DNA of 52,676 bases from a virus (lineage: Duplodnaviria > Caudoviricetes), in the IMG/VR virus record IMGVR_UViG_3300043384_000025, positions 1-52,676 of that record; one strand, written 5' to 3'. A program made the translations under genes and the position numbers. Position 1 is the stretch's first letter, and each line of letters begins with the position of its first letter. Below the pieces are notes generated by a model. It worked only from the letters and a program-made list of their open reading frames with translations, was not told where the DNA came from and did no database searches. Below, in pieces: positions 4,508-26,140 of this stretch.

Positions 4508-6909
4508 GGCGCCACCTTGCGAGGCCGGGAGACGAACTCGGCTCGCCACGCCTTCGCTCCGTGGGGCCAGTGCTTGTAGCGGCTCATCCACCGGATCTCG
4601 GCCCACCCGCGCTTGTACGCGCGCTGCCGCTCGACGCCGAGGAGGTAGAAGAAGTACCCGCGAGCCTGCTCGGGCGTTGCCGGCGGCGGCTTCGCGGAGC
4701 GCTCAATGTCAGCGAGCGAGACCGCGACCCCACGCGCGTTGCGAACGAGCCGCCGCTTGACAGGGTTCACGAAGCCGCAGAGCGGGCAGGAGGCGCCGTC
4801 CGCGAGGTAGACCGCGAAGCACTTGCGACAGGTTCGTAAGGCCGCGCTCGCCTCGCCCTTGCCCTTCTCGCCGACGCCGACCCGGAAGTCACCGGCGAGG
4901 GACCAGACGCGCGGCTCGTCAGGCAAACCGTGCTGGAAGAGCACCCCGGCGTGGTCGTGGAGCCTGGCAAAGCGCTTCGTGACGGGCAGGCCGCAGGCGC
5001 AGTCCTCGTGGCGCCAGTGAGGGATCCGGCCGCAGGTGCACGGGACCGGGCGGCGACCGCGGCCGACCATCTGGATCGCGAGCGCCAGGGACAGCGTCGG
5101 CCGGGCGAGGATCACCGTCTCGATCGCCGGGAGGTCGATGCCCTCCGAGAACAGGCCCACGTTGCAGAGGACCCTGGTTGTGCCGGCGCGGAACGCCTCG
5201 AAGATGCGCTTGCGCAGCGGCCGCGGAGTCTCACCGTCGAGGTGCTGGGCCGTCACGCCGGCCGCGGCGAACTGGAGCGCCAGCTGCCGCGAGTGCGCGA
5301 CGTTCACGGCGAACACGAGCGCCCGGGTCCCGCGAGCGCGCTCCTGGTACTGCTCGACGACGTTCCCCCGGAGGCGCGAGCTGCCCATGAGGTCGGCGAG
5401 CTCGGCGCCGTCGAAGTCGCCGGCGGTCCTGCGCACGCCGCGCAGGTCCGGGGCGTCGTAGGCGAAGCCGCGCACGGGGACCAGGTGACCCGCGTCGACG
5501 AGCTCGGCAGGCTTCACGAGCTCGACGAGCTCCTCGAAGATGTCGCCGAGAGGGGCGCCGCTGAGCCGGCACGGGCTCGCGGTCGACCCGAGGATCGCGC
5601 TCGAGGGGTAGTGGTCGAGGATCTCGCGCCAGCTCGAGGCCGATGCGTGGTGGCAGTTGTGGACGAGGAAGCCGTTCACGAAGTAGGCGTGCGTCCCCGC
5701 GACCTCAAGGTTGTAGACCTTGCGGCCTGGACACATGCCTCCAAACGTTCCATCACTTCCCGGTTCGAGAACCTCAGTACGGTCCACCCGAGCCCACGCA
5801 AGAAGGTGGCCTTCTTCTCGTCCTTGGCCTTCGTCGCGATGGCGCAGTGAGAGGCGCCATCCACCTCGACCGCTGTCCTTGAGGCTGGGTGCGCGATGTC
5901 GATCTTGTAGCAGGTTGGGAACATCGACCTCCGAGGCCGCCCCGTGTTCACGGCGAACTCGGCGAACCAGCCAACCCCCAGCGATCGCAACAGCGTCAAC
6001 TGAGGAAGCGGAAGAGCTCGTCCGTTGCCGCCCTGCTGAAGAGGGCGGTGGCCGATCTCTCGAAGCCTGTCGCTCACTCTCTGGCGGACGTCCTCTAGCC
6101 TCATCGGATTGCGGGCCTTCATTCTGGCCGAGGCATAGAGACGGTTCGTTCTCGCCATGGCTGCCGAGCTGCTCCGTGCGACTACGAGTCTTTTGTGCTC
6201 CTCCGAGCAGTAGGCGCGTGCGGATCTCTTCCATAAAGACCATCGCCACCGCTGCGATGTCGTCGTCAGTTGGACGGGAGCTCCACACCAGGTGCATGCG
6301 GCTACACAGGACAGCATCGTCGACCTCCAGCGCTCTGGCCTCTCGCCAGCCGCGCGCCGTGAAGAAGGGGTGGTTCGGGGTGCAGCGGATCTCGGTGCCG
6401 TCGATCACCAGCCGCAAGAGCGCCCGCGGGGCGCTGCAGAACACTCGCAGGACCCGGCTTCGCACCATCCGGCCGGTCGCCTCGTCGAACGAGAGAACCG
6501 GATCGCCCTCTCGAAGCGATTCGATCGGCCGTCCGTCAACCAGTGATCCGGCCGGGAAGCACTCATCCACGAGTACGATGTCCGCCGGCGGCTTGTCCCG
6601 GCGGGCCAACGTCTGGACCGAGGCGACCTGGATTGGGCGCTCGGGGTGCTCTTCGACCCCGGCGAGGATCACGCCCGGCGGCTCGCCCGTCTCCTGGCCG
6701 ACGCGCTCGGCGAGGTCCTCGACGAGCTCGCGGCGGTGCGTGAGGGCGAGCCCGCGGTTCCCCTTGCGGACGGTGGACGCGAGGATGTGGGCGAGCACGG
6801 TGCCCTTGCCGGCGCCGCAGGGCGCGACGAAGACGATGCGGCGGCGGCCGGAGTTGACGAGCGACCTGCAGCGCTCGACGGTCGCGAGCTGGTAGGGTCG
6901 GAGGACCAC
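4504..6909 (-). CDS. SF2 DEAD/DEAH-box helicase with intein and C-terminal Zn finger
   Basis: LRPYQ, APCGAGKG, SVQTL, DE|CH split by the intein, TASPCR, SEGIDLP, QMVGRGRR, CxxC-CxxC. Confidence 0.92.
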   Translation of the reverse strand: MVLRPYQLATVERCRSLVNSGRRRIVFVAPCGAGKGTVLAHILASTVRKGNRGLALTHRRELVEDLAERVGQETGEPPGVILAGVEEHPERPIQVASVQTLARRDKPPADIVLVDECFPAGSLVDGRPIESLREGDPVLSFDEATGRMVRSRVLRVFCSAPRALLRLVIDGTEIRCTPNHPFFTARGWREARALEVDDAVLCSRMHLVWSSRPTDDDIAAVAMVFMEEIRTRLLLGGAQKTRSRTEQLGSHGENEPSLCLGQNEGPQSDEARGRPPESERQASRDRPPPSSAGRQRTSSSASSVDAVAIAGGWLVRRVRREHGAASEVDVPNLLQDRHRAPSLKDSGRGGWRLSLRHRDEGQGREEGHLLAWARVDRTEVLEPGSDGTFGGMCPGRKVYNLEVAGTHAYFVNGFLVHNCHHASASSWREILDHYPSSAILGSTASPCRLSGAPLGDIFEELVELVKPAELVDAGHLVPVRGFAYDAPDLRGVRRTAGDFDGAELADLMGSSRLRGNVVEQYQERARGTRALVFAVNVAHSRQLALQFAAAGVTAQHLDGETPRPLRKRIFEAFRAGTTRVLCNVGLFSEGIDLPAIETVILARPTLSLALAIQMVGRGRRPVPCTCGRIPHWRHEDCACGLPVTKRFARLHDHAGVLFQHGLPDEPRVWSLAGDFRVGVGEKGKGEASAALRTCRKCFAVYLADGASCPLCGFVNPVKRRLVRNARGVAVSLADIERSAKPPPATPEQARGYFFYLLGVERQRAYKRGWAEIRWMSRYKHWPHGAKAWRAEFVSRPRKVAP
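5656..6561 (-). mobile_element. Intein (302 aa) inserted in helicase motif II
   Basis: Begins CFPAGSLV, block B CTPNHPF, ends VYNLEVAGTHAYFVNGFLVHN followed by Cys. Splicing restores VDE-CHH. Confidence 0.93.
5676..6317 (-). CDS. Vsr/DUF559-like endonuclease nested out of frame inside the intein (putative homing endonuclease)
   Basis: 213 aa with its own GGAGG 6 nt before the ATG. N-terminal CxxC...YCS, NPM...VRQRVS DNA-binding-like segment, and YKIDIA...AVEVDGASH...DEKK..FLRGLGWTVLRFSN. Confidence 0.82.
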   Translation of the reverse strand: MLSCVAACTWCGAPVQLTTTSQRWRWSLWKRSARAYCSEEHKRLVVARSSSAAMARTNRLYASARMKARNPMRLEDVRQRVSDRLREIGHRPLQQGGNGRALPLPQLTLLRSLGVGWFAEFAVNTGRPRRSMFPTCYKIDIAHPASRTAVEVDGASHCAIATKAKDEKKATFLRGLGWTVLRFSNREVMERLEACVQAARSTTLRSRGRTPTS

Positions 6910-6922
6910 GATGGGGTCCCGT

Positions 6923-7177
6923 CTACCCGGTCGACGCGAGCACCGCGGCGATCAATCGGTGGACGCGGCCCGGGAGAACCCGTACAAGGGCGCGCAAAGT
7001 CTCGAGCGTCGGATCCGCGCGCCCCCTCTCGGCGCGGTTGACGGCTGTTCTCGAGATCGCCGCGCGCCGTGCGAGCTCGCCCTGTGACCAGCCCGCCTTA
7101 CGACGCGCGTTTCTTATGACGTCGGGGAGCCGCGGTGTCGCAACCGACTCCGGGTCTCTTCGCGAGCGCTTATGCAT
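6923..7177 (-). CDS. Cro-like XRE helix-turn-helix regulator
   Basis: IRNARRKAGWSQGELARRAAISRTAVNRAERG; divergent from the second HTH gene. Confidence 0.85.
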   Translation of the reverse strand: MHKRSRRDPESVATPRLPDVIRNARRKAGWSQGELARRAAISRTAVNRAERGRADPTLETLRALVRVLPGRVHRLIAAVLASTG

Positions 7178-8345: not shown

Positions 8346-9230
8346 ATGAGTGGCGTCCAGAGCGACTATCGAGAGCAGCCTGGCGCGCACTACTCCACGC
8401 TCAAGGAACTGGGGCGCTCCGCTCGCCACTTCGCCTGGCTCGAGGCGCACGATCGCGAGCCGACCGCCGCCCTCGGCGTCGGGATCGCGACTCACCTCGC
8501 GGTGCTCGAGCCTGAGAAGTTCGCCGAGCGCGTGGTGATCTGGGGGCGCCAACTCGGCAGGCGCTCGGGGTCGATCTGGGCGAAGTTCAAGGGCTCCGCG
8601 GATCGGCGCGACCAGATCGTCCTGACCGAGGACGAGCACGACGAGGTGCTCGCGCTTGCTCGCGCGGTTCGTTCGAGCCCCCAGGCCAGGCCGCTGCTCA
8701 CCGACCCGAGCGGCGAGGCCGAGAAGGCGATCGCCTGGGTCGACGGCGAGACGGGGATCCAGTGCAAGGCCCGTCTCGACTGGGTGTGCGGCGCGGGAAT
8801 CGCAGACCTGAAAACCACGCGCGACGCGAGCCCCGACGGCTTCGCGCGCGAGTGCGCGCGCTACGGCTACCACAGGCAGGCTGCGTTCTACGTTGACGGC
8901 TACACCGCTGCTCAATGCCCGCGCGGAGGCTTGGTGTCCGCGACCCACCGGCAGGCGGCGTTCTCGATCATCGCCGTCGAGAAGGCACCGCCGTACGTCG
9001 TCCAGGTCTACCGCGTCGCCGGCGACGTGCTCGAGCTCGGCCGCGCGGAGATGCGGAGCTACCTGCGCCAGCTCGCTCAGCTGCAACGGCTCCCGCAGGA
9101 CCAATGGCCGGGCTACGCCGACGAGCCGCTCGACCTGTACCTGCCGCGGTGGGCGATGCCGCGGGAGGACGCGCTCGGCGACCTCGGGCTCGACGCGACT
9201 GGTCTCGACGACGCCACGAAGGAGGACTGA
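8346..9230 (+). CDS. PD-(D/E)XK exonuclease (ExoVIII/DUF3799-like)
   Basis: GIATHLAVLEPEKF, CKARLDW, IADLKTT, YGYHRQAAFY, IIAVEK, WPGY. Contains solo repeat S1 in frame. Confidence 0.88.
   Translation: MSGVQSDYREQPGAHYSTLKELGRSARHFAWLEAHDREPTAALGVGIATHLAVLEPEKFAERVVIWGRQLGRRSGSIWAKFKGSADRRDQIVLTEDEHDEVLALARAVRSSPQARPLLTDPSGEAEKAIAWVDGETGIQCKARLDWVCGAGIADLKTTRDASPDGFARECARYGYHRQAAFYVDGYTAAQCPRGGLVSATHRQAAFSIIAVEKAPPYVVQVYRVAGDVLELGRAEMRSYLRQLAQLQRLPQDQWPGYADEPLDLYLPRWAMPREDALGDLGLDATGLDDATKED
8909..8944 (+). repeat. Solo CRISPR repeat S1, in frame in the exonuclease gene
   Basis: TGCTCAATGCCCGCGCGGAGGCTTGGTGTCCGCGAC, 32/36 identical to the array consensus. Confidence 0.93.
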
Positions 9231-13976: not shown

Positions 13977-14587
13977 GCGCACGCATCGGCGCATGGTCGC
14001 AGACCTACACGGGCCGCCAATACTGGCCGCAGGACCCGCGCCCCGAGGACGTTGACCCGATCGACATCGCGCACGCCCTGTCGCTGCAATGTCGTTTCGG
14101 CGGCCACTGCAAGTGGCATTACTCGGTAGCGCAGCACTCGCTTCTTGTGGCCGAACTCCTCGGCTCAATGCCCGCGCAGGGGCCTGGTACCTGCGACTGG
14201 GGCTTGCTGCACGATGCCTCCGAGGCATACATGGTCGACCTCCCGAGGCCGCTGAAGAACCACTCGGCGATGGGCCTCGAATACAAGCGGATCGAAGCAC
14301 TGAACATGAGAGCGATCTGGGCGCGCTTCGGGCTCGTCGGACCGCAACCCGAGGCTGTCGCAATCGCCGACGAAGTGGCGTTGGCGATGGAGTTTCGCGA
14401 CGTCATGGGGTTGCCTCCGGATGCGCTGAATCTCCAGCAGGCGCCGGCGTCCCCCATCATCACTCGCATGAGCCCGGAGGCTTGCGAGGCGATCTTCCTC
14501 AATACCCTCGGCGTGCTCCTCGAAGCCCGAAGGGACGAGCAGGCGGGGTGGTCTTCGGCACATCTCCTCGCGCTCGAAGAACGATGA
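13973..14587 (+). CDS. HD-domain phosphohydrolase (YfdR/YfbR-like 5'-deoxynucleotidase)
   Basis: DIAHALS..CRFGGH..YSVAQHS...LLHDASEAY..DLPRPLK. Contains solo repeat S2 in frame. Confidence 0.9.
   Translation: MSARIGAWSQTYTGRQYWPQDPRPEDVDPIDIAHALSLQCRFGGHCKWHYSVAQHSLLVAELLGSMPAQGPGTCDWGLLHDASEAYMVDLPRPLKNHSAMGLEYKRIEALNMRAIWARFGLVGPQPEAVAIADEVALAMEFRDVMGLPPDALNLQQAPASPIITRMSPEACEAIFLNTLGVLLEARRDEQAGWSSAHLLALEER
14162..14197 (+). repeat. Solo CRISPR repeat S2, in frame in the HD hydrolase gene
   Basis: GGCTCAATGCCCGCGCAGGGGCCTGGTACCTGCGAC; stem CGCAGG/CCTGCG fully compensated. Confidence 0.85.
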
Positions 14588-14712
14588 AATGCCAACCGGG
14601 CCCCTGAGCTCGGCGCGGAGCACGTGCGGTCTCCGTGGCGACAGAACAACCGCACGCTGGGCCCGCCGGCGGCCGAGTCACCGCCGGCGGGCGCCATCCA
14701 AAGGAGGTCCAA

Positions 14713-14997
14713 ATGGCAACGCTGGTCATTCACATGCTGGACGGGACGGTCGTTCGAAAAACCGTTCCGGTCGTCGAAGCTGTCGCGATACATCTACTGC
14801 GCGCCATGCTCCGGATGCCGCCCGGCGCGCGAGTCGGGCCGGTCTCGTCGAGCGAGGTCTTGCTCCTCGCCGTGCACTCCCTGACCGCGTGTCCCCAGTG
14901 CGGCGCGGACGGCTTTGGCAACCCGGGCGGATGCCAGGTGTGCGCGCTCGGGCGAAAGGTTGTCGAGACGTTCAAGAATGGGAAGGCGTCGGCATAA
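14713..14997 (+). CDS. Small Zn-finger protein upstream of cas12
   Basis: AAGGAGG RBS; CPQC...CQVC; 94 aa. Confidence 0.7.
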   Translation: MATLVIHMLDGTVVRKTVPVVEAVAIHLLRAMLRMPPGARVGPVSSSEVLLLAVHSLTACPQCGADGFGNPGGCQVCALGRKVVETFKNGKASA

Positions 14998-15005
14998 AGG
15001 CGGCC

Positions 15006-15041
15006 ATATCAATGCCCGCGCGGAGGCCTGGTATCCGCGAC
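15006..15041 (+). repeat. Solo CRISPR repeat S3 in the cas12 5' region
   Basis: ATATCAATGCCCGCGCGGAGGCCTGGTATCCGCGAC, ending 42 nt before the cas12 ATG. Confidence 0.93.
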
Positions 15042-15083
15042 TGCGCGCTCGGGACGTCGAGGATCCGAAGAGGAGGCATTGCA

Positions 15084-16790
15084 ATGATCGTCTACAAATA
15101 TCGCATCTACCCAGACGAATCCGATCCGATGCTGCGCCAGATCCTGATGAGGGGAGAACGCTTCGCGCGGGTGATGACCGAGATCCATCAGCGTTACAAA
15201 GAGGCGGCTGCCGATCGCAAGCTTGTCGCGGTCGAGCAGCGCCGGGACTTCGCCTTGCTGGCCAAGTCGAGATTCCTCGCCGAGGCTAGGGACGCCAGGG
15301 CCCATTCCGGGCTCCACGGTAGCACCTGTAGCGCGATATCTGCCGCGCGCGACCAGGCCGCGCGTACGACCTCGCGCAAGTGCCTGCTCGCCAAGAAGGG
15401 CGGGGTGTGCCGCTGCGGCGAAGAGCATGCCGAGGGTACGCGCATTTGGATGCAATTCGAGCCACGGGTGGCAATCGTGGGGTGCCCGTTCTGCGGCCGA
15501 GGCCTTCGCATGCCGATCTCCGGAGAAGGGGGCGTCATCGGCGGGCAGATTCGCCACGACCGGCGATATTGCACGACAGACGAGATCCTCGGCGGCGAGT
15601 CTAGCGCCGTGCGCATTACTGGGACGGGGCGCGACCGCGTCGTACATCGTCGCGTGGCCGCCGCCGACGGAGAACCGGTATGGCTCTCGGCGCCGATGGT
15701 CTACCATCGCCCTCTGCCTCCTGGAGAGGGGGCGCGAGATGCTAGATTCGTGCGGCGTCGCATCGGCCATCACGCCGAGTGGCACGTGCTATTAACGATC
15801 GACTCCGAGTCATCGAGGCTTCCGAGCCCGACAAAGGGGTCCGTCGGCATCGATCTCGGCTGGCGACAGATGGACACCGGCGAGCTCCGAGTCGCAGCGT
15901 GGCGTGACGACACCGGCGCAGAGGGAGAGGTCCGCATCCCGGCGCAACTCGTTCGAGACATGCGCTCTGTCGACGAATTGCAGTCGACCAGGTCGACCAA
16001 CCTGGACGCGCTCCGAGACGCCCTGGTACTCGCCCGTGAGAGCTGGCCCGCGGGACTCTCCGAGGCGACTCGCTCGCTCCATCAATGGCGGTCACCAGAT
16101 CGGTTCGTGAGGCTCATGTACCGCATTCGCCGGGAAGCGCCAGGCGTCGCCGGAGCGGGCGCACTACGCGACTGGTATCGACGCCTGGACGACACCGGCC
16201 TGGCCCACGGAGAGAGCCATCTCAGAGAATGGGCGGAGCACCAGCGGGAGCATTGCCTGCTACGGAGAAAGGAGTTCTTTCGCTTGCAGGCACGGCAGTT
16301 CGCGGCGTACCGCGAAATGCATTGCGAGGACCTCGACCTATCCAAGTTGGCCAGACTCGCGGACGACCCCGAAGAGCGCCTCGCCAGGAAGGCGAGGCAT
16401 AACCGGATGCTTGCCGCGCCGAGCTACCTGCGCGCCGACATATTGTCATGCGTCGAACGGGCCGGCGGGCTGGTGGTCAAAGTGGACCCGGCGTACACCA
16501 CGCAGAAGTGCCCGATGTGCGGCCTCGTCTCCAGGTTGGACCCGATGCCGATCATACATACCTGCCCCGAGTGCGGTGTGACGCTCGACCAAGACCTCAA
16601 GGCAGCCGAAAACATTCGGCGAGCGCCGAGGTGCTCGCCGCCGAAGGGACCCCGCTCGCAGCCGCAAGATGCCGAGGTCGCAAAGCTTTCCGCATGGGCG
16701 CGCAGAAAGGCAGCCAAGACAGCACGAGAAGCGGAGGACCGCTCGCAAGGCGACTTGCAAGTGGTCGACAACATTGACATCGCAAAGTGA
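15084..16790 (+). CDS. cas12m: Compact type V CRISPR effector, Cas12m-like (V-M/V-U1, TnpB-derived), 568 aa
   Basis: AGGAGG RBS; N-terminal VYKYRI; MVYHRPLP; RuvC-I VGIDLGWR (D257); RuvC-II CEDLDL (E415); AAPSYLR; TTQKCPMCG...CPECG; RuvC-III DQDLKAAENI (D504). Stop is 3 nt from the first repeat. Subtype assigned from remembered motifs, not from a search. Confidence 0.85.
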   Translation: MIVYKYRIYPDESDPMLRQILMRGERFARVMTEIHQRYKEAAADRKLVAVEQRRDFALLAKSRFLAEARDARAHSGLHGSTCSAISAARDQAARTTSRKCLLAKKGGVCRCGEEHAEGTRIWMQFEPRVAIVGCPFCGRGLRMPISGEGGVIGGQIRHDRRYCTTDEILGGESSAVRITGTGRDRVVHRRVAAADGEPVWLSAPMVYHRPLPPGEGARDARFVRRRIGHHAEWHVLLTIDSESSRLPSPTKGSVGIDLGWRQMDTGELRVAAWRDDTGAEGEVRIPAQLVRDMRSVDELQSTRSTNLDALRDALVLARESWPAGLSEATRSLHQWRSPDRFVRLMYRIRREAPGVAGAGALRDWYRRLDDTGLAHGESHLREWAEHQREHCLLRRKEFFRLQARQFAAYREMHCEDLDLSKLARLADDPEERLARKARHNRMLAAPSYLRADILSCVERAGGLVVKVDPAYTTQKCPMCGLVSRLDPMPIIHTCPECGVTLDQDLKAAENIRRAPRCSPPKGPRSQPQDAEVAKLSAWARRKAAKTAREAEDRSQGDLQVVDNIDIAK

Positions 16791-16793
16791 CCC

Positions 16794-17390
16794 CTCTCAA
16801 TGCCTGCGCGGAGGCTTGGTATCCGCGACCTCTCCGAGGCGGTGCGCTTCGACCCGAAGGGCTTCTCTCAATGCCTGCGCGGAGGCTTGGTATCCGCGAC
16901 GAGCTGGTCTCCGTGCATGCAGCCGTCACCACGCACTCTCAATGCCTGCGCGGAGGCTTGGTATCCGCGACGAGGCAGATCATGACTCGCATACCAGCCT
17001 ATCTCCCTCTCAATGCCTGCGCGGAGGCTTGGTATCCGCGACTTGATGCTCTCGAGCATTTCGCGCGAGGGGGCGCGCTCTCAATGCCTGCGCGGAGGCT
17101 TGGTATCCGCGACTGCCAGCTCGGGACGATGCCCGCGAAGAGGCTCGCCCGTCCCCTTTCAATGCCTGCGGAGAGGCCTTGTATCTCCGACCTCGAGCGC
17201 CCGGTCGAGCTCGGCGCGGGTGGCCGGCTTTCAATGCCTGCGGAGAGGCTTGGTGTCTCCGACCGTGGGCTCGTGCTCGTCGCGCCGCCGCAATCTCGAG
17301 CTCTCAATGCCTGCGCAGAGGCTTTGTTTCTGCGACGCGCGGATTCTCCTATTACTCTCAATGCCTGCGAAGAGGCTTTGTATCTTCGAC
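16794..17390 (+). CRISPR. CRISPR array, 9 repeats of 36 nt and 8 spacers
   Basis: Consensus CTCTCAATGCCTGCGCGGAGGCTTGGTATCCGCGAC. Starts at 16794, 16865, 16936, 17007, 17078 (identical) and 17156, 17228, 17301, 17355 (variants). Spacers are 35, 35, 35, 35, 42, 36, 37 and 18 nt. Confidence 0.97.
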
Positions 17391-17394
17391 TCGC

Positions 17395-17426
17395 GCCGCC
17401 CTCCCGCACCGGGCGGCATTCTCTTT
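17395..17426 (+). terminator. Putative terminator hairpin after the array
   Basis: GCCGCCC-N9-GGGCGGC followed by ATTCTCTTT (weak U tract). Confidence 0.45.
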
Positions 17427-17459
17427 GATATCTTCGCCGACGACCGCAGGGAGTGATAG

Positions 17460-17774
17460 ATGGACATCGAGTGCGTCATCAGAGAAGCGGTTCGTACCAG
17501 CATCCGCGAGGAGCTGCGCGCCGCCCTGGGCGAACTCAAGGCCTCGACGGCGCCAGCGGCCTACCTCACGATCCGCGAGGCCGCGGAGCTCGCCAGGGTC
17601 TCGTGCGACTCGCTCCGGAGGTGGATCGGCGCCGGCCGCCTCACCGCTCGGCGTGCCGGCAGGGAGTTGCGGATCGAGCGCTCGGCTCTCGAGGCGTTCC
17701 TCTCGGAGAACATCGCGGCCCCCAAACCGTCGCCAGATCAGTGCTTCGATCGGATGTTCGGCGGCAAGCGCTGA
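17460..17774 (+). CDS. xis: Excisionase / HTH_17 DNA-binding protein
   Basis: YLTIREAAELARVSCDSLRRWIGAGRLTARRAGRELRI; directly upstream of the integrase. Confidence 0.85.
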   Translation: MDIECVIREAVRTSIREELRAALGELKASTAPAAYLTIREAAELARVSCDSLRRWIGAGRLTARRAGRELRIERSALEAFLSENIAAPKPSPDQCFDRMFGGKR

Positions 17775-17822
17775 CAGAGGCCGGCGCGGCGGGGTAGTGT
17801 CCCACGAGCTACACAGAGGCCG

Positions 17823-17858
17823 CTCTCAATGCCTGCGAAGAGGCTTGGTATCTTCGAC
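17823..17858 (+). repeat. Solo CRISPR repeat S4, abutting the integrase RBS
   Basis: CTCTCAATGCCTGCGAAGAGGCTTGGTATCTTCGAC, then GAGGAGGCAGC-ATG. Confidence 0.95.
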
Positions 17859-17869
17859 GAGGAGGCAGC

Positions 17870-19624
17870 ATGGGGCTGTACGCGAGAGGCACGCGGCTTT
17901 GGTTTTCGTGGACCGACGCGAACGGGAAGCGGCACCGCGAGCCGAGCGACTTCGAGGTCGGCCAGGAAGCGATGGCCGCGAAGGTGCTCGCGCGCGGGCA
18001 GGCGAAGATCGCCGCCGAGAAGAAGGCGCTGGCCGGCGGGCCGCGCGTGCACACCGAGAAGACTTCGCTGACCGACTACGTGCTGGGCGCACCTGGTGGC
18101 TGGCTCGAGGTCCGCCGGGCACGCAAGCCCGGTGTCGCTGCGAGCGAGCAGAGCATGTTCGAGTGCCACATCAGCCCGTTCCTCGGCCAGATGGCGCTGG
18201 GAGAGATCCGGCCTCGGAACGCGCGCGCGTTCATCTGGCACATGCGCGAGAAGATCAGCGAGGAGACCGGCCGGACGTTCGGAGGCAGGACGATTCGATC
18301 GATCGCCGGTCTGCTCGGGGCCATCCTCGACGATGCCGCGAGCGACGAGATCATCCCGATCAGCCCGTACAAGCTCAAGCGCGGGGATCTCCCGCCGAAG
18401 ATCGACGTCGATCCTCTGTGGCGGCAGCTCGCGTTCTTCGAGCGCGAGGAGATCGAGCAGTTGATCGGCGACCCGCGGATCCCGGAGGATCGCCAGGTGG
18501 TCTACGCCCTGGGGTTCATGACCGGCATGCGGCCGGGCGAGGTCGCTGCCCTGCGATGGGAGCGCTACCTGGCGAACGAGCAGCCGCTTGGGAAGCTGGT
18601 GGTCGCGACGAGCTTCTGCGCGAAGACGCACAAGGAGAGGCCGACCACCAAGACGAGCTCGACGAAGCTCGTGCCCGTGCACGCGTCGCTCGCGTCGATC
18701 TTGGCGAAGTGGAAGCTCGGCGGGTGGGCGCGGCTCATGGGCACTGACCCGCGGCCCAGGGACCTGCTCGTGCCGTCACGGCGGCGCGGGGACTTCCGCA
18801 ACCCCAACGACATGACGAACTCGCTCGAGGTCGACCTCGATGCGCTGGGGCTGCGCCGCAGGACGGCGCGCGACTGGAGGCCGAGCTTCATGACGCTGGT
18901 GCGGGCGGACGGGGCGATCGACGAGATCGCCAGGATGATCACGCATGGGGGGCAAAAGGACACCGTCGGCGGTTACCTTCGATTCCCATGGGCGACCGTG
19001 TGCCGCGAGTTGGCGAAGTTGCGAATCGAGCTCCGGGGGGAGGGGCTCGTGCTACCTTTTCGGCAGGCGGTCGGGGGGGACGGAGTCACGATGGAGGATG
19101 GGGTCTCAATGCCCGCGGAGAGGCCTGGTATCTCCGACATATCACACGCGGGGGAATCTGAGGCATTGGCACAGCGTTGTCACAGCCCGGAAAAACAGCC
19201 CTGTTTACAGCTACCTGGGGAGGTACACGGTTTGAGCCGGAACCAAAGTGCGGGTGTGGGGCCAGGCAGACTCACGCCGGCTAACGCCGCAGAATCACAG
19301 AGTGTCGCGGCGCGGCAATCGGCGTCAAGCGGGCTCGCGCCGACTCCCGTTGTGACAATGTGCCAATCAGGCGGCCGCACCAAGCCCGCCGTCGAGCCCG
19401 TCGTCGACCCCGTCGCCGACCCGTGGGACGAAGCCGCTACACGTTTTGTAGCGGCCGTAGCGGCCGCCCGGGACCCCGTCGGCGAAGCCCTCCTCGCCGC
19501 CCAGGATGCCTGGAGCGGGGCTCGCGACCGCATCGGCCTCCGAGTGCGCCTGCTCGAGATCGACCGCCTGCTCGACCGCATGGCCCTTGCCGAGCGGCCC
19601 TTGCCGCCGGGGGGCAAGCCTTGA
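17870..19624 (+). CDS. int: Tyrosine integrase with long C-terminal extension
   Basis: TGMRPGEVAALRW, TKT, VPVH, RDWR (variant of HxxR), ITH, GGY. Confidence 0.9.
   Translation: MGLYARGTRLWFSWTDANGKRHREPSDFEVGQEAMAAKVLARGQAKIAAEKKALAGGPRVHTEKTSLTDYVLGAPGGWLEVRRARKPGVAASEQSMFECHISPFLGQMALGEIRPRNARAFIWHMREKISEETGRTFGGRTIRSIAGLLGAILDDAASDEIIPISPYKLKRGDLPPKIDVDPLWRQLAFFEREEIEQLIGDPRIPEDRQVVYALGFMTGMRPGEVAALRWERYLANEQPLGKLVVATSFCAKTHKERPTTKTSSTKLVPVHASLASILAKWKLGGWARLMGTDPRPRDLLVPSRRRGDFRNPNDMTNSLEVDLDALGLRRRTARDWRPSFMTLVRADGAIDEIARMITHGGQKDTVGGYLRFPWATVCRELAKLRIELRGEGLVLPFRQAVGGDGVTMEDGVSMPAERPGISDISHAGESEALAQRCHSPEKQPCLQLPGEVHGLSRNQSAGVGPGRLTPANAAESQSVAARQSASSGLAPTPVVTMCQSGGRTKPAVEPVVDPVADPWDEAATRFVAAVAAARDPVGEALLAAQDAWSGARDRIGLRVRLLEIDRLLDRMALAERPLPPGGKP
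19103..19138 (+). repeat. Solo CRISPR repeat S5, in frame in the integrase C-terminal extension
   Basis: GTCTCAATGCCCGCGGAGAGGCCTGGTATCTCCGAC; stem CGGAGA/TCTCCG. Confidence 0.92.
19165..19367. other. Putative attP inside the integrase gene
   Basis: Left arm-like repeats TTGGCACA and TTGTCACA (19166-19184) are inverted relative to TGTGACAA and TGTGCCAA (19351-19366); lower GC. Core not identified. Confidence 0.55.
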
Positions 19625-19629
19625 TCGCC

Positions 19630-19665
19630 CCCTCAATGCCCGCGCAGAGGCTTGGTGTCTGCGAC
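19630..19665 (+). repeat. Solo CRISPR repeat S6, just after the integrase stop
   Basis: CCCTCAATGCCCGCGCAGAGGCTTGGTGTCTGCGAC; stem CGCAGA/TCTGCG. Confidence 0.92.
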
Positions 19666-19712
19666 CTCGACCTCCTGCGCCTGCTCGAGGCCTCGCCGGC
19701 GAGCGGGCGCCC

Positions 19713-20324
19713 GTGATCGCCGCGCTCTACGTCGCCAAGGGCGGCGTGTACTACGGGCTCCCCGACGTCGATCCCTGGGACGAGGCGCGGGACGCTCGGC
19801 TCTACGCCGGCCCGTGGCCGGTGGTCGCACACCCGCCATGCGCCAGGTGGTGCGGATTGGCGGGGCTCGTTGAGGCTCGATGGGGTCACCGTCGAGGCGA
19901 AGACGGAGGATGCTTTGCTTCGGCCCTCGCCTCCGTGCGGCGGTGGGGCGGCGTGCTTGAGCATCCGGCCTATTCCGCTGCATGGGCCAAATTCCTGCTA
20001 CCGGCCCCACCCCGTCATGGCGGATGGGTGCGCGGAATCTGTGGCGGTTGGGCGGCTCATGTCGAGCAGTCCAGGTTTGGACATGTTGCCAAGAAAGCTA
20101 CGTGGCTATACGCATTCCACGTGTTTCCGCCATCAATGCCGTGGGGCTCATCGCCAGATGGTTCTTCGCTAGCTATTGTCTCGTGGTGCGGGAACCACAC
20201 TTCTAGATTCGACACTCGGCCTAGAATTGGTAAGGCTCGCGCAGCGGCGACGCCCGTCGCATTCCGCGATTTGCTTCTTTCTATCTCCAGGAGCGCCAAT
20301 GGCTCGTCCGCGAACGCTACTTGA
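19713..20324 (+). CDS. Putative DNA cytosine methyltransferase-like protein
   Basis: IAALYV...DARLYAGPWPVVAHPPCARW...GGVLEHP...KKATWLY; PC and EHP motifs resemble C5-MTase motifs IV and VI. Confidence 0.65.
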   Translation: MIAALYVAKGGVYYGLPDVDPWDEARDARLYAGPWPVVAHPPCARWCGLAGLVEARWGHRRGEDGGCFASALASVRRWGGVLEHPAYSAAWAKFLLPAPPRHGGWVRGICGGWAAHVEQSRFGHVAKKATWLYAFHVFPPSMPWGSSPDGSSLAIVSWCGNHTSRFDTRPRIGKARAAATPVAFRDLLLSISRSANGSSANAT

Positions 20325-21342: not shown

Positions 21343-21378
21343 GTCGGAGATACCAAGCCTCTCCGCGGGCATCGCGCA
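21343..21378 (-). repeat. Solo CRISPR repeat S7 (minus strand, 3' UTR of the leftward operon)
   Basis: Reverse complement is TGCGCGATGCCCGCGGAGAGGCTTGGTATCTCCGAC; first 6 nt diverged, both stems intact. Confidence 0.88.
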
Positions 21379-21397: not shown

Positions 21398-21712
21398 CTA
21401 CTTCGCCGGATCGGCCGCCGCCACCTGTTGCGCGCCGCTGGCCCTGGGCTCGACGCCGAGCGCTTCCCGCGCACGCTGGCAGAGCACGACCGAGGAGGCG
21501 TGATCGCTGCCGGTGAGGCGCTTCCATTCCTTGGCTACCTCATCGGTCCAATACCGGCCATCGTGAAAGAGCAGCACCGCTCGGAGGGCGTCGCCCATGG
21601 CATGGACGGTGGTCTCGGCCTGCCGGGCCAACTCGATCAGCTGCTCGTTCTGCTCATGCAGTAGGCGCCAATCCCGCTCGATCGTCCGCAACCGTTCTTC
21701 GATGATGTTCAC
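21398..21712 (-). CDS. Hypothetical protein
   Basis: GTG after GGAGG, coupled to the upstream stop. Confidence 0.6.
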   Translation of the reverse strand: MNIIEERLRTIERDWRLLHEQNEQLIELARQAETTVHAMGDALRAVLLFHDGRYWTDEVAKEWKRLTGSDHASSVVLCQRAREALGVEPRASGAQQVAAADPAK

Positions 21713-22302
21713 TTGCGCCTCCAGACCGAGAGGCCGTCGTGGATCCCGGACCACGTCGGGATCCGGCGGGCGGCCAGCGTCTCGAACCGCGCCTCGAGCA
21801 GCTCGTCGAACCGAACGTCGGCGCAGCACCCGCCGACCTCGCCGACGTAGATCACTCGCTTGCCCTCGTAGACTTCGAGCGCTTCGGCCGCCCATGGCAT
21901 GGCGTACGACGGCCAGATCAGCATCAGCGTCCGCTCGGGGTACACCTTCGCCGCGGTCGCAGCGTCCATCTCGACGACCGGGTGCCACTGGCGCTCGAAC
22001 CGCACGGTGCCGATCGGCGTCCGGCTCGAGGGCACCGGGTGGAGGTCGGTGGCGATGATGTCCACGCCGAGCGCTTCCAGCTCGTACGCCCAGTAGCCTG
22101 CGCCCGCGCCTACCTCGATGATCGGCCCATACCTCGCGACAGCGAGCAGCGCGTCCTCATCGGGGATCGCGAAGCCGAAGCCGCGCACGAACCTGGACCT
22201 GAGATCGATGACCCGCTCGAGATCGAAGAGCGGGTAGCCGGACAGGAAGCCGTCTCCCGCCTTCACGCCAGCGTCTCGCAAAGCCTGCTCGTACAGGGTC
22301 AA
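21709..22302 (-). CDS. Class I SAM-dependent methyltransferase-like protein
   Basis: IIEVGAGAGYWA, DIIATD, LMLIWP, VIYVGE. Confidence 0.75.
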   Translation of the reverse strand: MTLYEQALRDAGVKAGDGFLSGYPLFDLERVIDLRSRFVRGFGFAIPDEDALLAVARYGPIIEVGAGAGYWAYELEALGVDIIATDLHPVPSSRTPIGTVRFERQWHPVVEMDAATAAKVYPERTLMLIWPSYAMPWAAEALEVYEGKRVIYVGEVGGCCADVRFDELLEARFETLAARRIPTWSGIHDGLSVWRRK

Positions 22303-23048
22303 TTGACGTCCTCCCTAGACCGCTCCGGCAACAGCCAAGCGAAGCGGCCCTTGAACTTGTCGCTCCCGCGCGGGAAAGCCTGGATGGTGGGGGCCCCGAA
22401 GGACTTTACTTCCCCCTCGCCCCGCCGGCGCCGCTCGTAGGGCAGGACGATCACACGCGCCCCATCCGAGTGCTCCATCTCGGAGATGATCGCCTCGGTG
22501 GCGAGAGGGTCGTCCTCGAGCTTCCTCGCGTGGTCCTTGCGCTGCTCCCCGTCCGCCAGGTTGAGATGCCAGGCGTCGGCCTGCTTCACGTAGGCGACCG
22601 CGCCGCTCCGGCGCAGCATCGCCCGTATCTGGATCGCAACGAGGTCCATGGGCGTCAAATTCTGACTCTCGCAAACGGCCTGAACGAACGTCTCGTTCAT
22701 TCGCTCCAGCGAGTAGCCAGGATGCTGGCGCGCGGCGGCCGCAGCAACCTCGAACCCGGCGCGGCCTTCATCGTCGAGCATGTTGTCACGAATGATGCCA
22801 GCGAGCGCATCCGGGTGGTAGTTGATTGGCAGGCACATTATGACGAGACCGCCGTCCGTCGGCGCCCGCCCGGGTTGCTGGAGCGGACGAAGCTTGCCGC
22901 GAAAGTCGGGCGGGACAAGATCGAAGTAAGTCAGCATCCAAACCAATGTCGCCAGGAATCCATCTTCGCGGAGGACGCGCTTGCTCGCCTCGAAGATCGA
23001 GTCGTGCCACTCTGTGAGGAACTCCTCGCCCAGCTCGTGGCGGCTCAC
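22299..23048 (-). CDS. Hypothetical protein
   Basis: 249 aa coupled ORF with globular composition. Confidence 0.7.
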   Translation of the reverse strand: MSRHELGEEFLTEWHDSIFEASKRVLREDGFLATLVWMLTYFDLVPPDFRGKLRPLQQPGRAPTDGGLVIMCLPINYHPDALAGIIRDNMLDDEGRAGFEVAAAAARQHPGYSLERMNETFVQAVCESQNLTPMDLVAIQIRAMLRRSGAVAYVKQADAWHLNLADGEQRKDHARKLEDDPLATEAIISEMEHSDGARVIVLPYERRRRGEGEVKSFGAPTIQAFPRGSDKFKGRFAWLLPERSREDVN

Positions 23049-25728: not shown

Positions 25729-26063
25729 CCAGCGAGGCCTGCAGCGGCCCCCAGTGCAGTCGCCCGGCGCGGGTGCGCGGGTACTGCCTGGCGCACTACC
25801 GGCAGCTACTTCGCAGGCGCAAAGGCAAGCGCGCCCCGAAGCTTGTCCCGCTGCGAGCCCAGCGACTGGGGGATGCTCGCCTGGTGCAGCTCTCGGTGAA
25901 GGTCACCCGAGCCTGCGTGGCCGAGCTCGACGACGTGCAGCCGGAGCGCAGCGGCACCGCGAGGCTCGTGCTCGAGGCGTGGGCGATGCGCCGCCGGGCG
26001 GAGCGCGAAGCGGAGCTCCTCGCCGCCCCGGACCCAGGGCCGCTGCTCCGGTCGCGCCGGTAG
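25725..26063 (+). CDS. Zn-finger plus RHH-like protein, paralog of the upstream gene
   Basis: CSGPQC...GYCLAH; LSVKVTRACVAEL...RLVLEAWA. Confidence 0.65.
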   Translation: MTSEACSGPQCSRPARVRGYCLAHYRQLLRRRKGKRAPKLVPLRAQRLGDARLVQLSVKVTRACVAELDDVQPERSGTARLVLEAWAMRRRAEREAELLAAPDPGPLLRSRR

Positions 26064-26072
26064 AAACGGCGA

Positions 26073-26109
26073 AGAGCCCGCTCCCTCACGCGAGGGGGCG
26101 GGCTCTCTT
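26073..26109. terminator. Strong hairpin between convergent accessory and late operons
   Basis: AGAGCCCGCTCCCTC-ACGC-GAGGGGGCGGGCTCT, a 15-bp stem with one G-U pair. Confidence 0.7.
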
Positions 26110-26140
26110 GGAGAGGCGAGATGGATGTCGAGGCCGACCG

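What the first reader, a model, noticed from the sequence alone, without database searches (positions are those of the whole stretch)
15084..16790. Phage-encoded Cas12m-like effector with an intact RuvC triad and an extra Cys-rich insert
Seen: D257, E415 and D504 are all present. An additional Cys/His cluster (CLLAKKGGVCRCGEEH...GCPFCG) lies in the N-terminal half. No cas1, cas2 or tnpA occurs in the window. Known: characterised Cas12m proteins have non-canonical RuvC sites and silence by DNA binding. Inference: this may be a nuclease-active intermediate between TnpB and Cas12m, used in phage-phage competition, and a candidate compact (568 aa) editor.
Basis: partly seen in the sequence, partly recalled or inferred. 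Interest (0 to 1): 0.82.

Follow-up and report, generated by a model that had tools for sequence, protein, structure and literature searches.

The report
Phage-borne Cas12m CRISPR effector with scattered repeats
A temperate soil phage carries a small CRISPR protein of the Cas12m family with its own guide array, most likely a DNA-binding silencer and not a cutter, and copies of its CRISPR repeat are also scattered through the phage's early genes.

Summary
ORF 15084-16790 (568 aa) has D257, E415 and D504 and an N-terminal Cys cluster. No cas1, cas2 or tnpA lies in this 52.7-kb IMG/VR virus record.

The protein belongs to the Cas12m (type V-M, formerly V-U1) family: PADLOC Cas12u1 scores E 4e-62, and solved Cas12m structures are the best sequence and fold matches, ahead of TnpB and Cas12f. 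A 9-repeat array starts 3 nt after the stop codon. Its repeat pairs at the positions reported for PmCas12m crRNA.

An intact D-E-D triad is the usual state (106 of 122 relatives). Published D-E-D Cas12m proteins bind DNA without cutting it. Two of this protein's three nearest relatives have lost the triad. The Cys cluster looks like a zinc ribbon and is shared by a sub-clade (13 of 122). Prophage and phage V-M systems are already in print.

Best reading: a DNA-binding silencer carried on a swappable cassette beside xis/int.

Unexpected: seven solitary repeats, all in sense orientation, with compensatory stem changes; three lie inside open reading frames. In contigs of a related phage that lacks the cassette, the five covered sites are altered or replaced.

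The parts
15084..16790 (+). cas12m-like gene (568 aa, P0001)
   Evidence: Translation. PADLOC Cas12u1 E 4.3e-62. PDB phmmer: Cas12m 23vw_A E 1.9e-33. Foldseek and VIA best matches are Cas12m2 and GoCas12m. AF2 model pLDDT 91.9.
15381..15494 (+). Codons for residues 100-137: Cys/His cluster (C100, C109-x-C111, H115, C134-x-x-C137). Read as a zinc ribbon lying between the REC helices and the next block of strands.
   Evidence: Cys positions. Strands at 98-102, 120-124 and 130-133, with pLDDT 81-93. Conserved in P0002, P0008 and P0009; a CxC/CxxC...CxxC motif occurs in 13 of 122 relatives. Zinc binding is inferred.
15852..15854 (+). RuvC-I Asp257 codon
   Evidence: This column is D in 108 of 122 relatives.
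16326..16328 (+). RuvC-II Glu415 codon
   Evidence: This column is E in 112 of 122 relatives.
16593..16595 (+). RuvC-III Asp504 codon
   Evidence: This column is D in 121 of 122 relatives.
16509..16574 (+). C4 set (C476, C479, C494, C497) inside the Pfam TNB-domain match; read as its zinc finger
   Evidence: Pfam PF07282 E 3.6e-15 over aa 457-511. The four Cys are nearly invariant.
16794..17390 (+). CRISPR array: 9 repeats of 36 nt. The first five are identical; the last four differ by compensatory stem changes. Eight spacers of 35, 35, 35, 35, 42, 36, 37 and 18 nt.
   Evidence: The covariance model scores 57-61 bits for all nine.
15006..15041 (+). Solitary repeat 8 nt after the stop of the upstream ORF and 42 nt before the cas12m start
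   Evidence: 55.2 bits.
8909..8944 (+). Solitary repeat inside the PDDEXK (DUF3799) gene, in a loop about 7 codons before FSIIAVEK
14162..14197 (+). Solitary repeat inside the HD dNMP-phosphatase gene. It is read in frame as SMPAQGPGTCD, directly before the invariant LLHDASEAYM motif.
17823..17858 (+). Solitary repeat between xis and int, ending 11 nt before the int start codon
19103..19138 (+). Solitary repeat in the low-coding tail of the integrase ORF (in frame as SMPAERPGISD)
19630..19665 (+). Solitary repeat 5 nt after the integrase ORF stop
21343..21378 (-). Solitary repeat on the minus strand, after the minus-strand gene 21709-22314. A stem-loop with a T-rich tail follows it.
   Evidence: 53 bits.
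14996..17561 (.). Variable cassette: solitary repeat, cas12m and the array, plus sequence up to 17561, which lies inside the xis ORF. In a related phage contig, 1261 other bases stand here.
   Evidence: read laying, run X4 record 23: joint 14995 to 17562 with 1261 letters between. cas12m has GC3 0.76, against 0.85-0.91 in 8 of 11 other genes.
17460..17774 (+). Excisionase-like HTH gene
   Evidence: PHROGs 7338, 66 and 2907.
17870..19624 (+). Tyrosine integrase ORF. The coding signal fades after about 19040.
   Evidence: PHROG 1, E 3.2e-26 over aa 7-359. GC3 profile.

Best explanation
This is a genuine type V-M (Cas12m-family) CRISPR module: effector, leader-side solitary repeat and 9-repeat array, with no adaptation genes. 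It is carried as an exchangeable accessory cassette in the early/lysogeny region of a temperate, Mu-like-headed, contractile-tailed phage.

Inferred mechanism. The array is transcribed in the same direction as the gene. Cas12m binds the pseudoknotted 36-nt repeat and trims its own crRNAs. The complex then binds PAM-flanked matching DNA of competing mobile elements and silences transcription or replication by staying bound, not by cutting.

The intact D-E-D triad is the ancestral, majority state of the family, so it does not indicate DNA cleavage. The N-terminal Cys cluster is read as a zinc ribbon added to a shortened REC lobe in one sub-clade.

Shown here: family membership, fold, array, repeat structure, phage context and cassette variability. 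Inferred: binding without cleavage, self-processing, zinc binding and the targets.
For: Family and fold:
- PADLOC Cas12u1 E 4.3e-62.
- PDB phmmer gives Cas12m chains at E 1.9e-33, 2.7e-23 and 4.6e-14, against about 4e-5 for Cas12f and 6e-3 for TnpB.
- Foldseek ranks 1-4 are Cas12m2 and GoCas12m at E 1.8e-21 to 1.9e-19; Cas12f and TnpB score 1e-12 to 1e-10.
- VIA gives Z 23.5 and 23.0 with 461 and 474 aligned residues, against Z 20.0 with 342 aligned for TnpB.

CRISPR association:
- The array starts 3 nt after the stop.
- Relatives L054 and L059 carry same-family repeats just 3' of the gene.
- 24 of 26 viral loci that encode relatives have a periodic repeat just downstream, 21 of them with 3 or more copies. 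The other two show none: one is cut 69 nt and the other 223 nt after the match.

Repeat structure:
- Pairs 9-11 with 20-22 and 14-19 with 29-34 correspond to positions -28..-26 with -17..-15 and -23..-20 with -6..-3 as reported for PmCas12m (preprint 10.64898/2026.03.26.714355, passage).
- 189 of 189 cells pair, three pairs change on both sides, and 0 of 500 shuffles reach the covariation score.

Binder rather than cutter:
- Tested D-E-D, H-D-D and N-D-D Cas12m all bind and do not cut (PMC11013384).
- Converting HDD to DED did not restore cutting in Cas12m2 (PMC10442227).
- The closest solved relative, 23vw_A, shows D, E and D at the three aligned positions and is deposited as 'DNA-binding protein Cas12m'.
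- In the 4-member clade around this protein (support 100), P0008 is N-D-D and P0009 is V-E-D.

Phage context.

Cassette: X4 record 23; low GC3.
Against: - No experiment bears on this protein. It shares only about 22% identity with the solved Cas12m structures over the structural alignment.
- The triad is kept in 106 of 122 relatives, which implies selection for something at that site. Pre-crRNA processing was reported to be RuvC-independent, so the conserved role could be a nuclease activity the published assays missed.
- No spacer target was found in the window, in GenBank phages, or (spacer 1 only) in IMG/VR. The defence or competition role therefore rests on analogy.
- The REC lobe does not align by sequence with solved Cas12m: the phmmer matches start near residue 180.
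Confidence: 0.7

Rival explanations
1. It is a catalytically active RNA-guided DNA nuclease. The intact D-E-D site cuts target DNA, by a nick or a double-strand break, or cuts single strands in trans after target binding.
For: D257, E415 and D504 are intact. 106 of 122 relatives keep D-E-D, and the reason for that conservation is unexplained. Published assays addressed dsDNA cleavage. In the passages I read I saw nothing on nicking or trans-cleavage by D-E-D members.
Against: Four D-E-D Cas12m proteins were tested and none cut dsDNA (PMC11013384). Restoring DED in Cas12m2 did not restore cutting (PMC10442227). The two relatives P0008 and P0009 inside its 4-member clade have lost the triad, which argues that catalysis is dispensable in this lineage.
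Confidence: 0.2
2. The module is mainly a regulator of the phage's own genes, not a weapon. Cas12m binds, and may cut, the seven solitary repeats embedded in early and lysogeny transcripts (two recombination or nucleotide-metabolism genes, its own leader, and both sides of int). This would control mRNA stability, translation or operon processing. Alternatively it would load cr-like guides that repress nearby promoters.
For: - All 7 solitary repeats are sense to local transcription and lie within 8.9-21.4 kb; none is in the late genes.
- They keep the crRNA fold through compensatory changes.
- One ends 11 nt before the int start and one 42 nt before the cas12m start.
- In X4 contigs of a relative without the cassette, the five covered sites are replaced, skipped or shortened.
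- In other Cas12m-carrying virus records, in-ORF copies recur in the same reading frame; one more lies in L019, a 10-kb fragment where no Cas12m was found.
- Repeat-like elements upstream of cas12a are described as regulators (bioRxiv 10.1101/2023.03.03.530964, passages).
Against: No RNA data: no RNA holder was listed. In G009 the two solitary repeats differ in loop and pseudoknot from that genome's own array repeat. In the window, six of seven solitary repeats carry C at repeat position 12 while all nine array repeats carry T. Both facts fit mimicry of another system's repeat at least as well.
Confidence: 0.25
3. The solitary repeats are RNA anti-CRISPRs (Racrs). These are decoys that load a host or rival Cas12m with useless guides, and they travel with a captured cas12m module but work independently of it.
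For: [quoted passage not shown] The C12 versus T12 difference and the mismatch between G009's solitary repeats and its own array fit this. The C12 form occurs in arrays of actinomycete genomes.
Against: Published Racr candidates are described as intergenic and not cas-associated, and intragenic hits were treated as probable false positives. Here three of seven lie in open reading frames and a cognate cas12m is present. The host and its CRISPR content are unknown.
Confidence: 0.25
4. It is an IS200/IS605-type TnpB with an omega-RNA, and the repeats are transposon-end debris.
For: The C-terminal third matches TnpB/Cas12f TNB models. TnpB structures align at Z 18-20.
Against: The NCBIfam TnpB subfamily scores 57.5 bits against a cut-off of 100. 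No Y1 transposase was found. There is a regular 71-nt-period array with unique spacers. Cas12m models and structures score far better.
Confidence: 0.02

Closest known systems
Cas12m / type V-M (formerly V-U1) effectors: MmCas12m (Cas12m2), GoCas12m, PmCas12m
   Same: Best profile, sequence and fold matches. About 570-600 aa. A RuvC domain with a TNB insert carrying four Cys. A 36-nt repeat pairing at the same positions as PmCas12m crRNA. The array lies directly 3' of the gene. No adaptation genes.
   Different: About 22% identity to the solved structures. The REC lobe does not align by sequence. It carries a likely CxC...CxxC zinc ribbon; the passages I read mention only the TNB or ZnF zinc site, and 'zinc' occurs nowhere in the PmCas12m preprint. 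The triad is D-E-D, unlike the H-D-D and N-D-D of the solved examples. D-E-D clades are known.
MvCas12m of myxophage MV-1 (bioRxiv 10.64898/2026.09.14.751636; passages read)
   Same: A temperate phage carrying Cas12m with a conserved D-E-D triad, an adjacent array of eight spacers, no cas1, cas2 or cas4, and no spacer targets found.
   Different: That protein has 610 aa with D305/E463/D555, and the phage came from a wastewater biofilm. The passages I read do not mention solitary repeats or a REC zinc ribbon.
Solitary repeat units / RNA anti-CRISPRs (Racrs; PMC10651486) and cr-like regulatory RNAs next to cas genes (bioRxiv 10.1101/2023.03.03.530964)
   Same: Single CRISPR repeats outside arrays in a viral genome. 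One lies directly upstream of the effector gene, as reported for many cas12a loci.
   Different: Here there are seven copies beside a cognate phage-borne effector. All are sense to transcription, and three lie within open reading frames. In contigs of a relative lacking the cassette, the five covered sites are altered.
TnpB and Cas12f
   Same: Shared RuvC/TNB core.
   Different: No transposase. A CRISPR array instead of an omega-RNA or tracrRNA-type guide. About 120-130 more residues align with Cas12m than with TnpB.

Membership tests
Cas12m (type V-M / V-U1) | Profile and sequence similarity to Cas12m/Cas12u1 above other Cas12 and TnpB families | tested here: met
   PADLOC Cas12u1 E 4.3e-62, 208.6 bits, is the top hit. 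The next hit, a model labelled Cas12f, is close at E 7.2e-55. PDB phmmer gives Cas12m 1.9e-33 against Cas12f about 4e-5 and TnpB 6e-3.
Cas12m (type V-M / V-U1) | Bilobed Cas12m fold (WED/REC plus RuvC with helical insert and TNB) | tested here: met
   AF2 model pLDDT 91.9, pTM 0.84. Foldseek ranks 1-4 are Cas12m entries. VIA Z 23.5 and 23.0, rmsd 4.3, 461 and 474 aligned. TnpB follows at Z 20.0, so the margin in Z is modest; the margin in aligned length is large.
Cas12m (type V-M / V-U1) | Adjacent CRISPR array whose repeat forms the Cas12m crRNA scaffold (stem plus pseudoknot), used without tracrRNA | tested here: met
   9-repeat array. Pairing positions equal those reported for PmCas12m. 189 of 189 cells paired with covariation. 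I made no dedicated tracrRNA search. The only minus-strand copy of the repeat is at 21343-21378.
Cas12m (type V-M / V-U1) | RuvC triad state within the range seen in the family (D-E-D, N-E-D, H-D-D, N-D-D and others) | tested here: met
   D-E-D. Clades 3 and 4 of the published scheme include D-E-D (PMC10442227).
Cas12m (type V-M / V-U1) | PAM-dependent DNA binding without cleavage; self-processing of pre-crRNA | not testable with these tools
   Needs biochemistry. Inferred from tested family members.
TnpB (IS200/IS605, IS607) | Score above the curated family cut-off; association with tnpA and transposon ends | tested here: not met
   NF040570 scores 57.5 bits against a cut-off of 100, and IS607_TnpB 26.5 against 350. 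No Y1_Tnp in the record. The record is about 80% complete.
Racr / solitary repeat units (for the seven scattered repeats) | Single repeat mimicking a CRISPR repeat, outside arrays, in a mobile element | tested here: met
   Seven copies score 53-61 bits and the next hit scores 11 bits.
Racr / solitary repeat units (for the seven scattered repeats) | Inhibits a host CRISPR-Cas system; typically intergenic and not linked to cas genes | tested here: inconclusive
   Three of seven lie in open reading frames and a cognate cas12m is present. Inhibition cannot be tested here, and the host is unknown.

The most novel reading that the evidence does not exclude
The phage has wired its Cas12m into its own transcripts. 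CRISPR repeats written into early and lysogeny mRNAs, some in frame inside protein-coding genes just upstream of their most conserved motifs, would be bound and cut by the phage's Cas12m. That would give post-transcriptional control of int, cas12m and recombination genes. It could also release hard-wired guides that match the same genes in kin phages lacking the repeat, while the phage's own copies stay safe because the repeat's 3' end is not a PAM.
Probability: 0.25. Interest if true: 0.8.

Novelty: new variant of a known kind. Interest (0 to 1): 0.5.

Why it matters
Type V-M systems on prophages and phages are already recorded, so the effector alone adds a divergent member with a likely extra REC zinc ribbon. 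That is useful for protein engineering and for mapping Cas12m diversity. It is not a missing link to TnpB.

More could come from the repeat network. A phage-borne, probably non-cutting Cas12m sits beside sense-oriented, structure-preserving repeats inside its own genes. The pattern recurs in other Cas12m-carrying virus records. In contigs of a relative without the cassette, the five covered repeat sites are altered. If these repeats are Cas12m substrates, this would be a natural case of a CRISPR effector used for RNA-level control of viral genes or for built-in guides against kin. It is directly testable with a cloned 13-kb fragment.

Tried and rejected
- Spacer targets: no match with fewer than 5 mismatches in 24 nt inside the window. 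One chance-level hit of the array against GenBank phages, E 0.2. No exact hit of the first 24 nt of spacer 1 in IMG/VR. The other seven spacers were not scanned against IMG/VR, and plasmids were not searched.
- Close relatives' loci: P0002 and P0008 (52% and 49% identity) could not be fetched. Scans of viral contigs, metagenomes and genomes returned only relatives at 36% identity or less. The look-up of encoding contigs is marked closed and was not called.
- Host: no tRNA in the window. No capsid relative in genome contigs. The best GenBank capsid match is Myxococcus phage Mx4 at only 33%. Host left open.
- RNA evidence: no RNA holder listed. Only contigs could be laid.
- Rfam: no family matches the repeat.
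- Promoter and terminator scan of 14500-19800: no promoter-like site, and terminator-like sites at chance level on the minus strand only.
- MvCas12m identity: none of the 156 held proteins fits D305/E463/D555.
- N-terminal 185 aa against PDB sequences: nothing significant, best E 0.78.
- The first tree run did not finish, so FastTree was used (local support only, midpoint root).
- An alignment of 15 relatives was too diverse for locus search; smaller alignments were used instead.
- Seed matches: 12-nt PAM-proximal matches of two guides near cas12m look enriched only under a criterion chosen after seeing them, and their flanks share no motif. Kept as an observation only.
Full report
**The observation**

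Window 15084-16790 (+) translates to 568 residues plus a stop. D257 lies in GIDLGWR, E415 in HCEDLDL and D504 in LDQDLK. Cys residues sit at 100, 109, 111, 134 and 137, with H115 between them. A second C4 set at 476/479/494/497 lies inside the stretch that Pfam calls the Cas12f1-like TNB domain (PF07282, E 3.6e-15, aa 457-511).

The frame is open from 14589. The start at 15084 has AGGAGG 8 nt upstream and matches the N-termini of relatives.

Family searches of the whole record found no Cas1, Cas2 or Y1 transposase. The same searches rang in 7, 6 and 6 of 14 control genomes. The record is an IMG/VR virus contig, linear and about 80% complete, so these absences hold for the window only.

**What the protein is**

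- PADLOC's Cas12u1 model is the best profile hit (E 4.3e-62, aa 189-511). A model labelled Cas12f follows at 7.2e-55.
- NCBIfam has only sub-threshold TnpB matches: 57.5 bits against a cut-off of 100.
- Against PDB sequences the best chains are Cas12m entries: 23vw_A at E 1.9e-33, UnCas12m4a at 2.7e-23 and Cas12m2 at 4.6e-14. Cas12f chains score about 4e-5 and TnpB 6e-3, over the C-terminal part only.
- An AlphaFold2 model built on 122 sequences has mean pLDDT 91.9 and pTM 0.84.
- Foldseek ranks Cas12m2 (8hhl, 8hhm, 8hio) and GoCas12m (8pm4) first, at E 1.8e-21 to 1.9e-19. AsCas12f follows at 2.6e-12 and TnpB at 8.1e-11.
- VIA-align gives Z 23.5 (rmsd 4.3, 461 aligned) and Z 23.0 (474 aligned) for Cas12m. 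ISDra2 TnpB gets Z 20.0 (342 aligned) and AsCas12f Z 18.2 (379 aligned).

The Z margin is modest, but the extra 120-130 aligned residues belong to Cas12m-specific parts.

A full HMMER scan of 1.8 billion representatives found 3822 relatives at E up to 1e-3 and 434 at E up to 1e-30. The nearest are P0002 (52% identity), P0008 (49%) and P0009 (40%).

**The array and its RNA**

Three bases after the stop codon begins an array of nine 36-nt repeats at 16794-17390. The first five are identical. The spacers measure 35, 35, 35, 35, 42, 36, 37 and 18 nt.

The repeat can pair positions 9-11 with 20-22 and 14-19 with 29-34. Counted from the 3' end, these are the positions reported for the PmCas12m crRNA scaffold: -28..-26 with -17..-15, and -23..-20 with -6..-3 (bioRxiv 10.64898/2026.03.26.714355, passage read).

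I tested this on 21 distinct repeat copies from the window and from five other loci (L018, L019, L051-L053). All 189 cells pair and three pairs change on both sides; pair 16:32 occurs as CG, GC, UA and AU. None of 500 shuffles reaches the covariation score, and sliding the partners destroys the pairing. I derived the structure from these sequences, which favours it in the sliding control. The compensatory changes are independent of that bias.

Relatives are CRISPR-associated too:
- A delta-proteobacterial MAG homologue (36% identity) is followed by two such repeats.
- A metagenome homologue (32%) is followed by fourteen.
- 24 of 26 IMG/VR loci encoding relatives have a periodic repeat just 3' of the gene, 21 of them with three or more copies. 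The other two show none: one ends 69 nt and the other 223 nt after the match.

**The triad**

In the 122-sequence alignment, 106 proteins are D-E-D and 16 are not: NDD 4, NED 3, HDD 2 and seven singletons. An intact triad is therefore the rule in the family.

The literature agrees. Bigelyte et al. 2024 (PMC11013384; passages read) chose four D-E-D, two H-D-D and two N-D-D Cas12m proteins. They report that none shows dsDNA nuclease activity while all bind DNA in a PAM-dependent way, and that pre-crRNA processing is RuvC-independent. Omura et al. 2023 (PMC10442227; passages) list four clades, two of which contain D-E-D. They add that converting HDD to DED did not restore cleavage.

The closest solved relative, 23vw_A, shows D, E and D at the three aligned positions and is deposited as a 'DNA-binding protein'.

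In a FastTree phylogeny (local support, midpoint root) this protein sits in a 4-member clade (support 100) with P0002 (D-E-D), P0008 (N-D-D) and P0009 (V-E-D). The site is evidently dispensable in its nearest kin.

I therefore put binding without cleavage at about 0.7. The broad conservation of D-E-D remains unexplained, so I leave about 0.2 for some nuclease activity.

**The Cys-rich element**

The cluster is real and not unique. C100, C109, C111, H115, C134 and C137 are all kept in P0002 and P0008; P0009 keeps four of them (C109, C111, C134, C137). A CxC or CxxC ... CxxC motif is visible in 11 of the 15 nearest relatives. A motif count finds it in 13 of 122, and 11 of these lie in the 35-member clade that holds this protein.

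In the model this stretch forms short strands (98-102, 120-124, 130-133) at pLDDT 81-93, between three REC helices (15-95) and the next block of strands. I read this as a zinc ribbon; I could not measure the metal geometry.

Most relatives instead have a longer helical REC, and sequence matches to solved Cas12m start only near residue 180. The papers I read mention only the TNB or ZnF zinc site, and 'zinc' does not occur in the PmCas12m preprint. I did not inspect the sequences of the solved chains.

**The setting**

The window is phage throughout. Its genes include:
- Structural and lysis genes: Mu-like gpT capsid, ClpP-type protease and scaffold, a DUF2586 protein (recalled, not from a call, as Mu-type tail sheath), tape measure, baseplate and endolysin.
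- Replication and DNA metabolism: PrimPol-AAA_25 protein, Dam methylase, an intein-bearing helicase, a PDDEXK protein, an exonuclease, an SMC-like ATPase and an HD dNMP phosphatase.
- Lysogeny: excisionase and integrase.

The best GenBank capsid match is Myxococcus phage Mx4 at 33%, so the host is open.

Phage and prophage V-M systems are already in print. [quoted passage not shown] A 2026 preprint describes MvCas12m in a temperate myxophage, with a D-E-D triad, eight spacers and no adaptation genes (10.64898/2026.09.14.751636, passages). That is a different protein.

**A swappable cassette**

Only assembled contigs could be laid on 14000-20000, with likeness set at 85 in 100 or more.

A 3396-nt contig of run X4 matches 14000-14340, 14591-14995, 17562-17777 and 17859-18213. 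It has 1261 other bases in place of 14996-17561, which holds the leader repeat, cas12m, the array and sequence up to 17561 inside the xis ORF.

cas12m also has lower GC3 (0.76) than 8 of 11 other genes compared (0.85-0.91).

**Seven solitary repeats**

A pattern search and a covariance model both find exactly 16 repeat units: nine in the array and seven alone. They score 53-61 bits, and the next hit scores 11 bits.

The solitary copies lie at 8909, 14162, 15006, 17823, 19103 and 19630 on the plus strand and at 21343-21378 on the minus strand. All are sense to the flanking genes. All lie in the early/lysogeny block and none in the late genes. They keep the fold through compensatory changes.

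Three lie in open reading frames:
- In the HD phosphatase the copy reads SMPAQGPGTCD. It overlays a variable loop, only about 3 residues longer than in 20 viral homologues, directly before the invariant LLHDASEAYM.
- In the PDDEXK protein the copy adds about 10 residues before FSIIAVEK, relative to one homologue at 39% identity.
- In the integrase ORF the copy lies in a tail where the coding signal has faded.

Of the others, one ends 11 nt before the int start codon and one 42 nt before the cas12m start.

In the X4 contigs, all five sites covered are altered:
- 14162 has 13 bases missing.
- 15006 lies inside the replaced cassette.
- 17823 is replaced by 265 bases.
- 19103 is replaced by 87 bases.
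- 19630 is skipped, with 23 other bases in its place.

I could not read the replacing bases for three of these sites, so a divergent repeat there is not excluded. Run X3 holds a contig with a repeat at another place (between 14698 and 14765) and a contig with repeat, 37-nt spacer and repeat where 17823 stands.

The pattern recurs elsewhere:
- Viral fragment L019 has three solitary copies, one in frame in an ORF as AMPAEGLRTSD.
- Virus record G007 carries a Cas12m relative and has copies at 24, 66 and 76 kb, far from its arrays.
- Virus record G009 is 100% complete, also carries a Cas12m relative, and has two copies inside long ORFs.

Seven of the eight in-ORF copies use the same reading frame (x-M/T-P-A-...-D). 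Some of these ORFs are not confirmed genes.

Two facts argue against a simple 'own substrate' reading:
- Six of the seven solitary copies have C at repeat position 12, where all nine array repeats have T.
- G009's solitary copies differ in loop and pseudoknot from its own array repeat.

Solitary repeat units are known as RNA anti-CRISPRs, described as intergenic and not cas-linked, with intragenic hits treated as probable false positives (PMC10651486, passages). Repeat-like elements upstream of cas12a are described as regulators (10.1101/2023.03.03.530964, passages).

I cannot decide among decoy, cis-regulatory site and built-in guide. No RNA run was listed.

**Targets**

No spacer or pseudo-spacer matches the window with fewer than 5 mismatches in 24 nt. 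The array has no meaningful hit in GenBank phages, and the start of spacer 1 has no exact hit in IMG/VR.

Two guides have exact 12-nt PAM-proximal matches close by: the leader pseudo-spacer at 14941 and spacer 1 at 16056, inside cas12m. A same-strand copy within 1 kb upstream occurs for 0.26% of window 12-mers. I chose that criterion after seeing the matches, however, and the flanks share no motif.

**Limits**

- Supplementary files were not requested. The variant lists of PMC11013384 and of the myxophage preprint may hold closer relatives or the clade assignment.
- Wu et al. 2022 (Mol Cell) was not read. I know it only through citations in the papers above.

**Verdict**

This is a real, phage-borne Cas12m-family module and most probably a non-cutting DNA binder. 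The 'nuclease-active intermediate' reading is not supported. As a Cas12m it is a divergent member with a likely sub-clade zinc ribbon. The network of solitary repeats is the part that deserves follow-up.

Noticed in passing
window 8909-8944, 14162-14197, 15006-15041, 17823-17858, 19103-19138, 19630-19665 (+); 21343-21378 (-): Seven solitary copies of the Cas12m repeat. All are sense to local genes and keep the crRNA fold by compensatory changes. Three lie inside open reading frames. Six have C at repeat position 12, where all nine array repeats have T.
   Followed up: yes
window 14941-14952 and 16056-16067: Exact 12-nt matches to the PAM-proximal ends of the leader pseudo-spacer (15042) and of spacer 1 (16830). 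Both are same-strand and lie upstream of or inside cas12m. This may be autoregulation or chance; the flanks share no motif.
   Followed up: partly
window 14996-17561: In a related phage contig (run X4), this stretch (leader repeat, cas12m, the array and sequence up to 17561 inside xis) is replaced by 1261 unrelated bases. The content of the replacement could not be read.
   Followed up: partly
window 19040-19624: The integrase ORF runs about 190 codons past its catalytic region with a faded coding signal and no stop. A solitary repeat lies at each end of this tail. It may hold attP or a retroregulatory region.
   Followed up: partly
window 4507-6951 (-): A ResIII/Helicase_C helicase interrupted by an intein or HINT domain (aa 139-217 of the ORF).
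   Followed up: no
window 16644-16787 (residues 521-568 of P0001): A basic C-terminal tail (RSQ...AWARRKAAK...) modelled at low confidence. It is conserved in pattern across the nearest 15 relatives. Role unknown.
   Followed up: no
P0062 (relative), C-terminus: Its predicted C-terminus reads ...CLRGGLVSST, which resembles a translated repeat of this family. The gene call probably runs into its own array.
   Followed up: no
L053 (Phytoactinopolyspora limicola scaffold, G005:C1:88665-89277): A 9-repeat array of the same repeat family, but no match to this Cas12m in that genome at E up to 1e-3. It may be an orphan array or have a more distant effector.
   Followed up: partly
L098 / G007 and L113: Other Cas12m-carrying virus records have repeat clusters on both sides of the effector gene. 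L113 also has a lone copy about 2.5 kb further upstream.
   Followed up: partly
window 26001-28000: GC content rises to 0.746 here, and my GC3 filter found no confident ORF between about 25.7 and 28.2 kb. Not examined.
   Followed up: no
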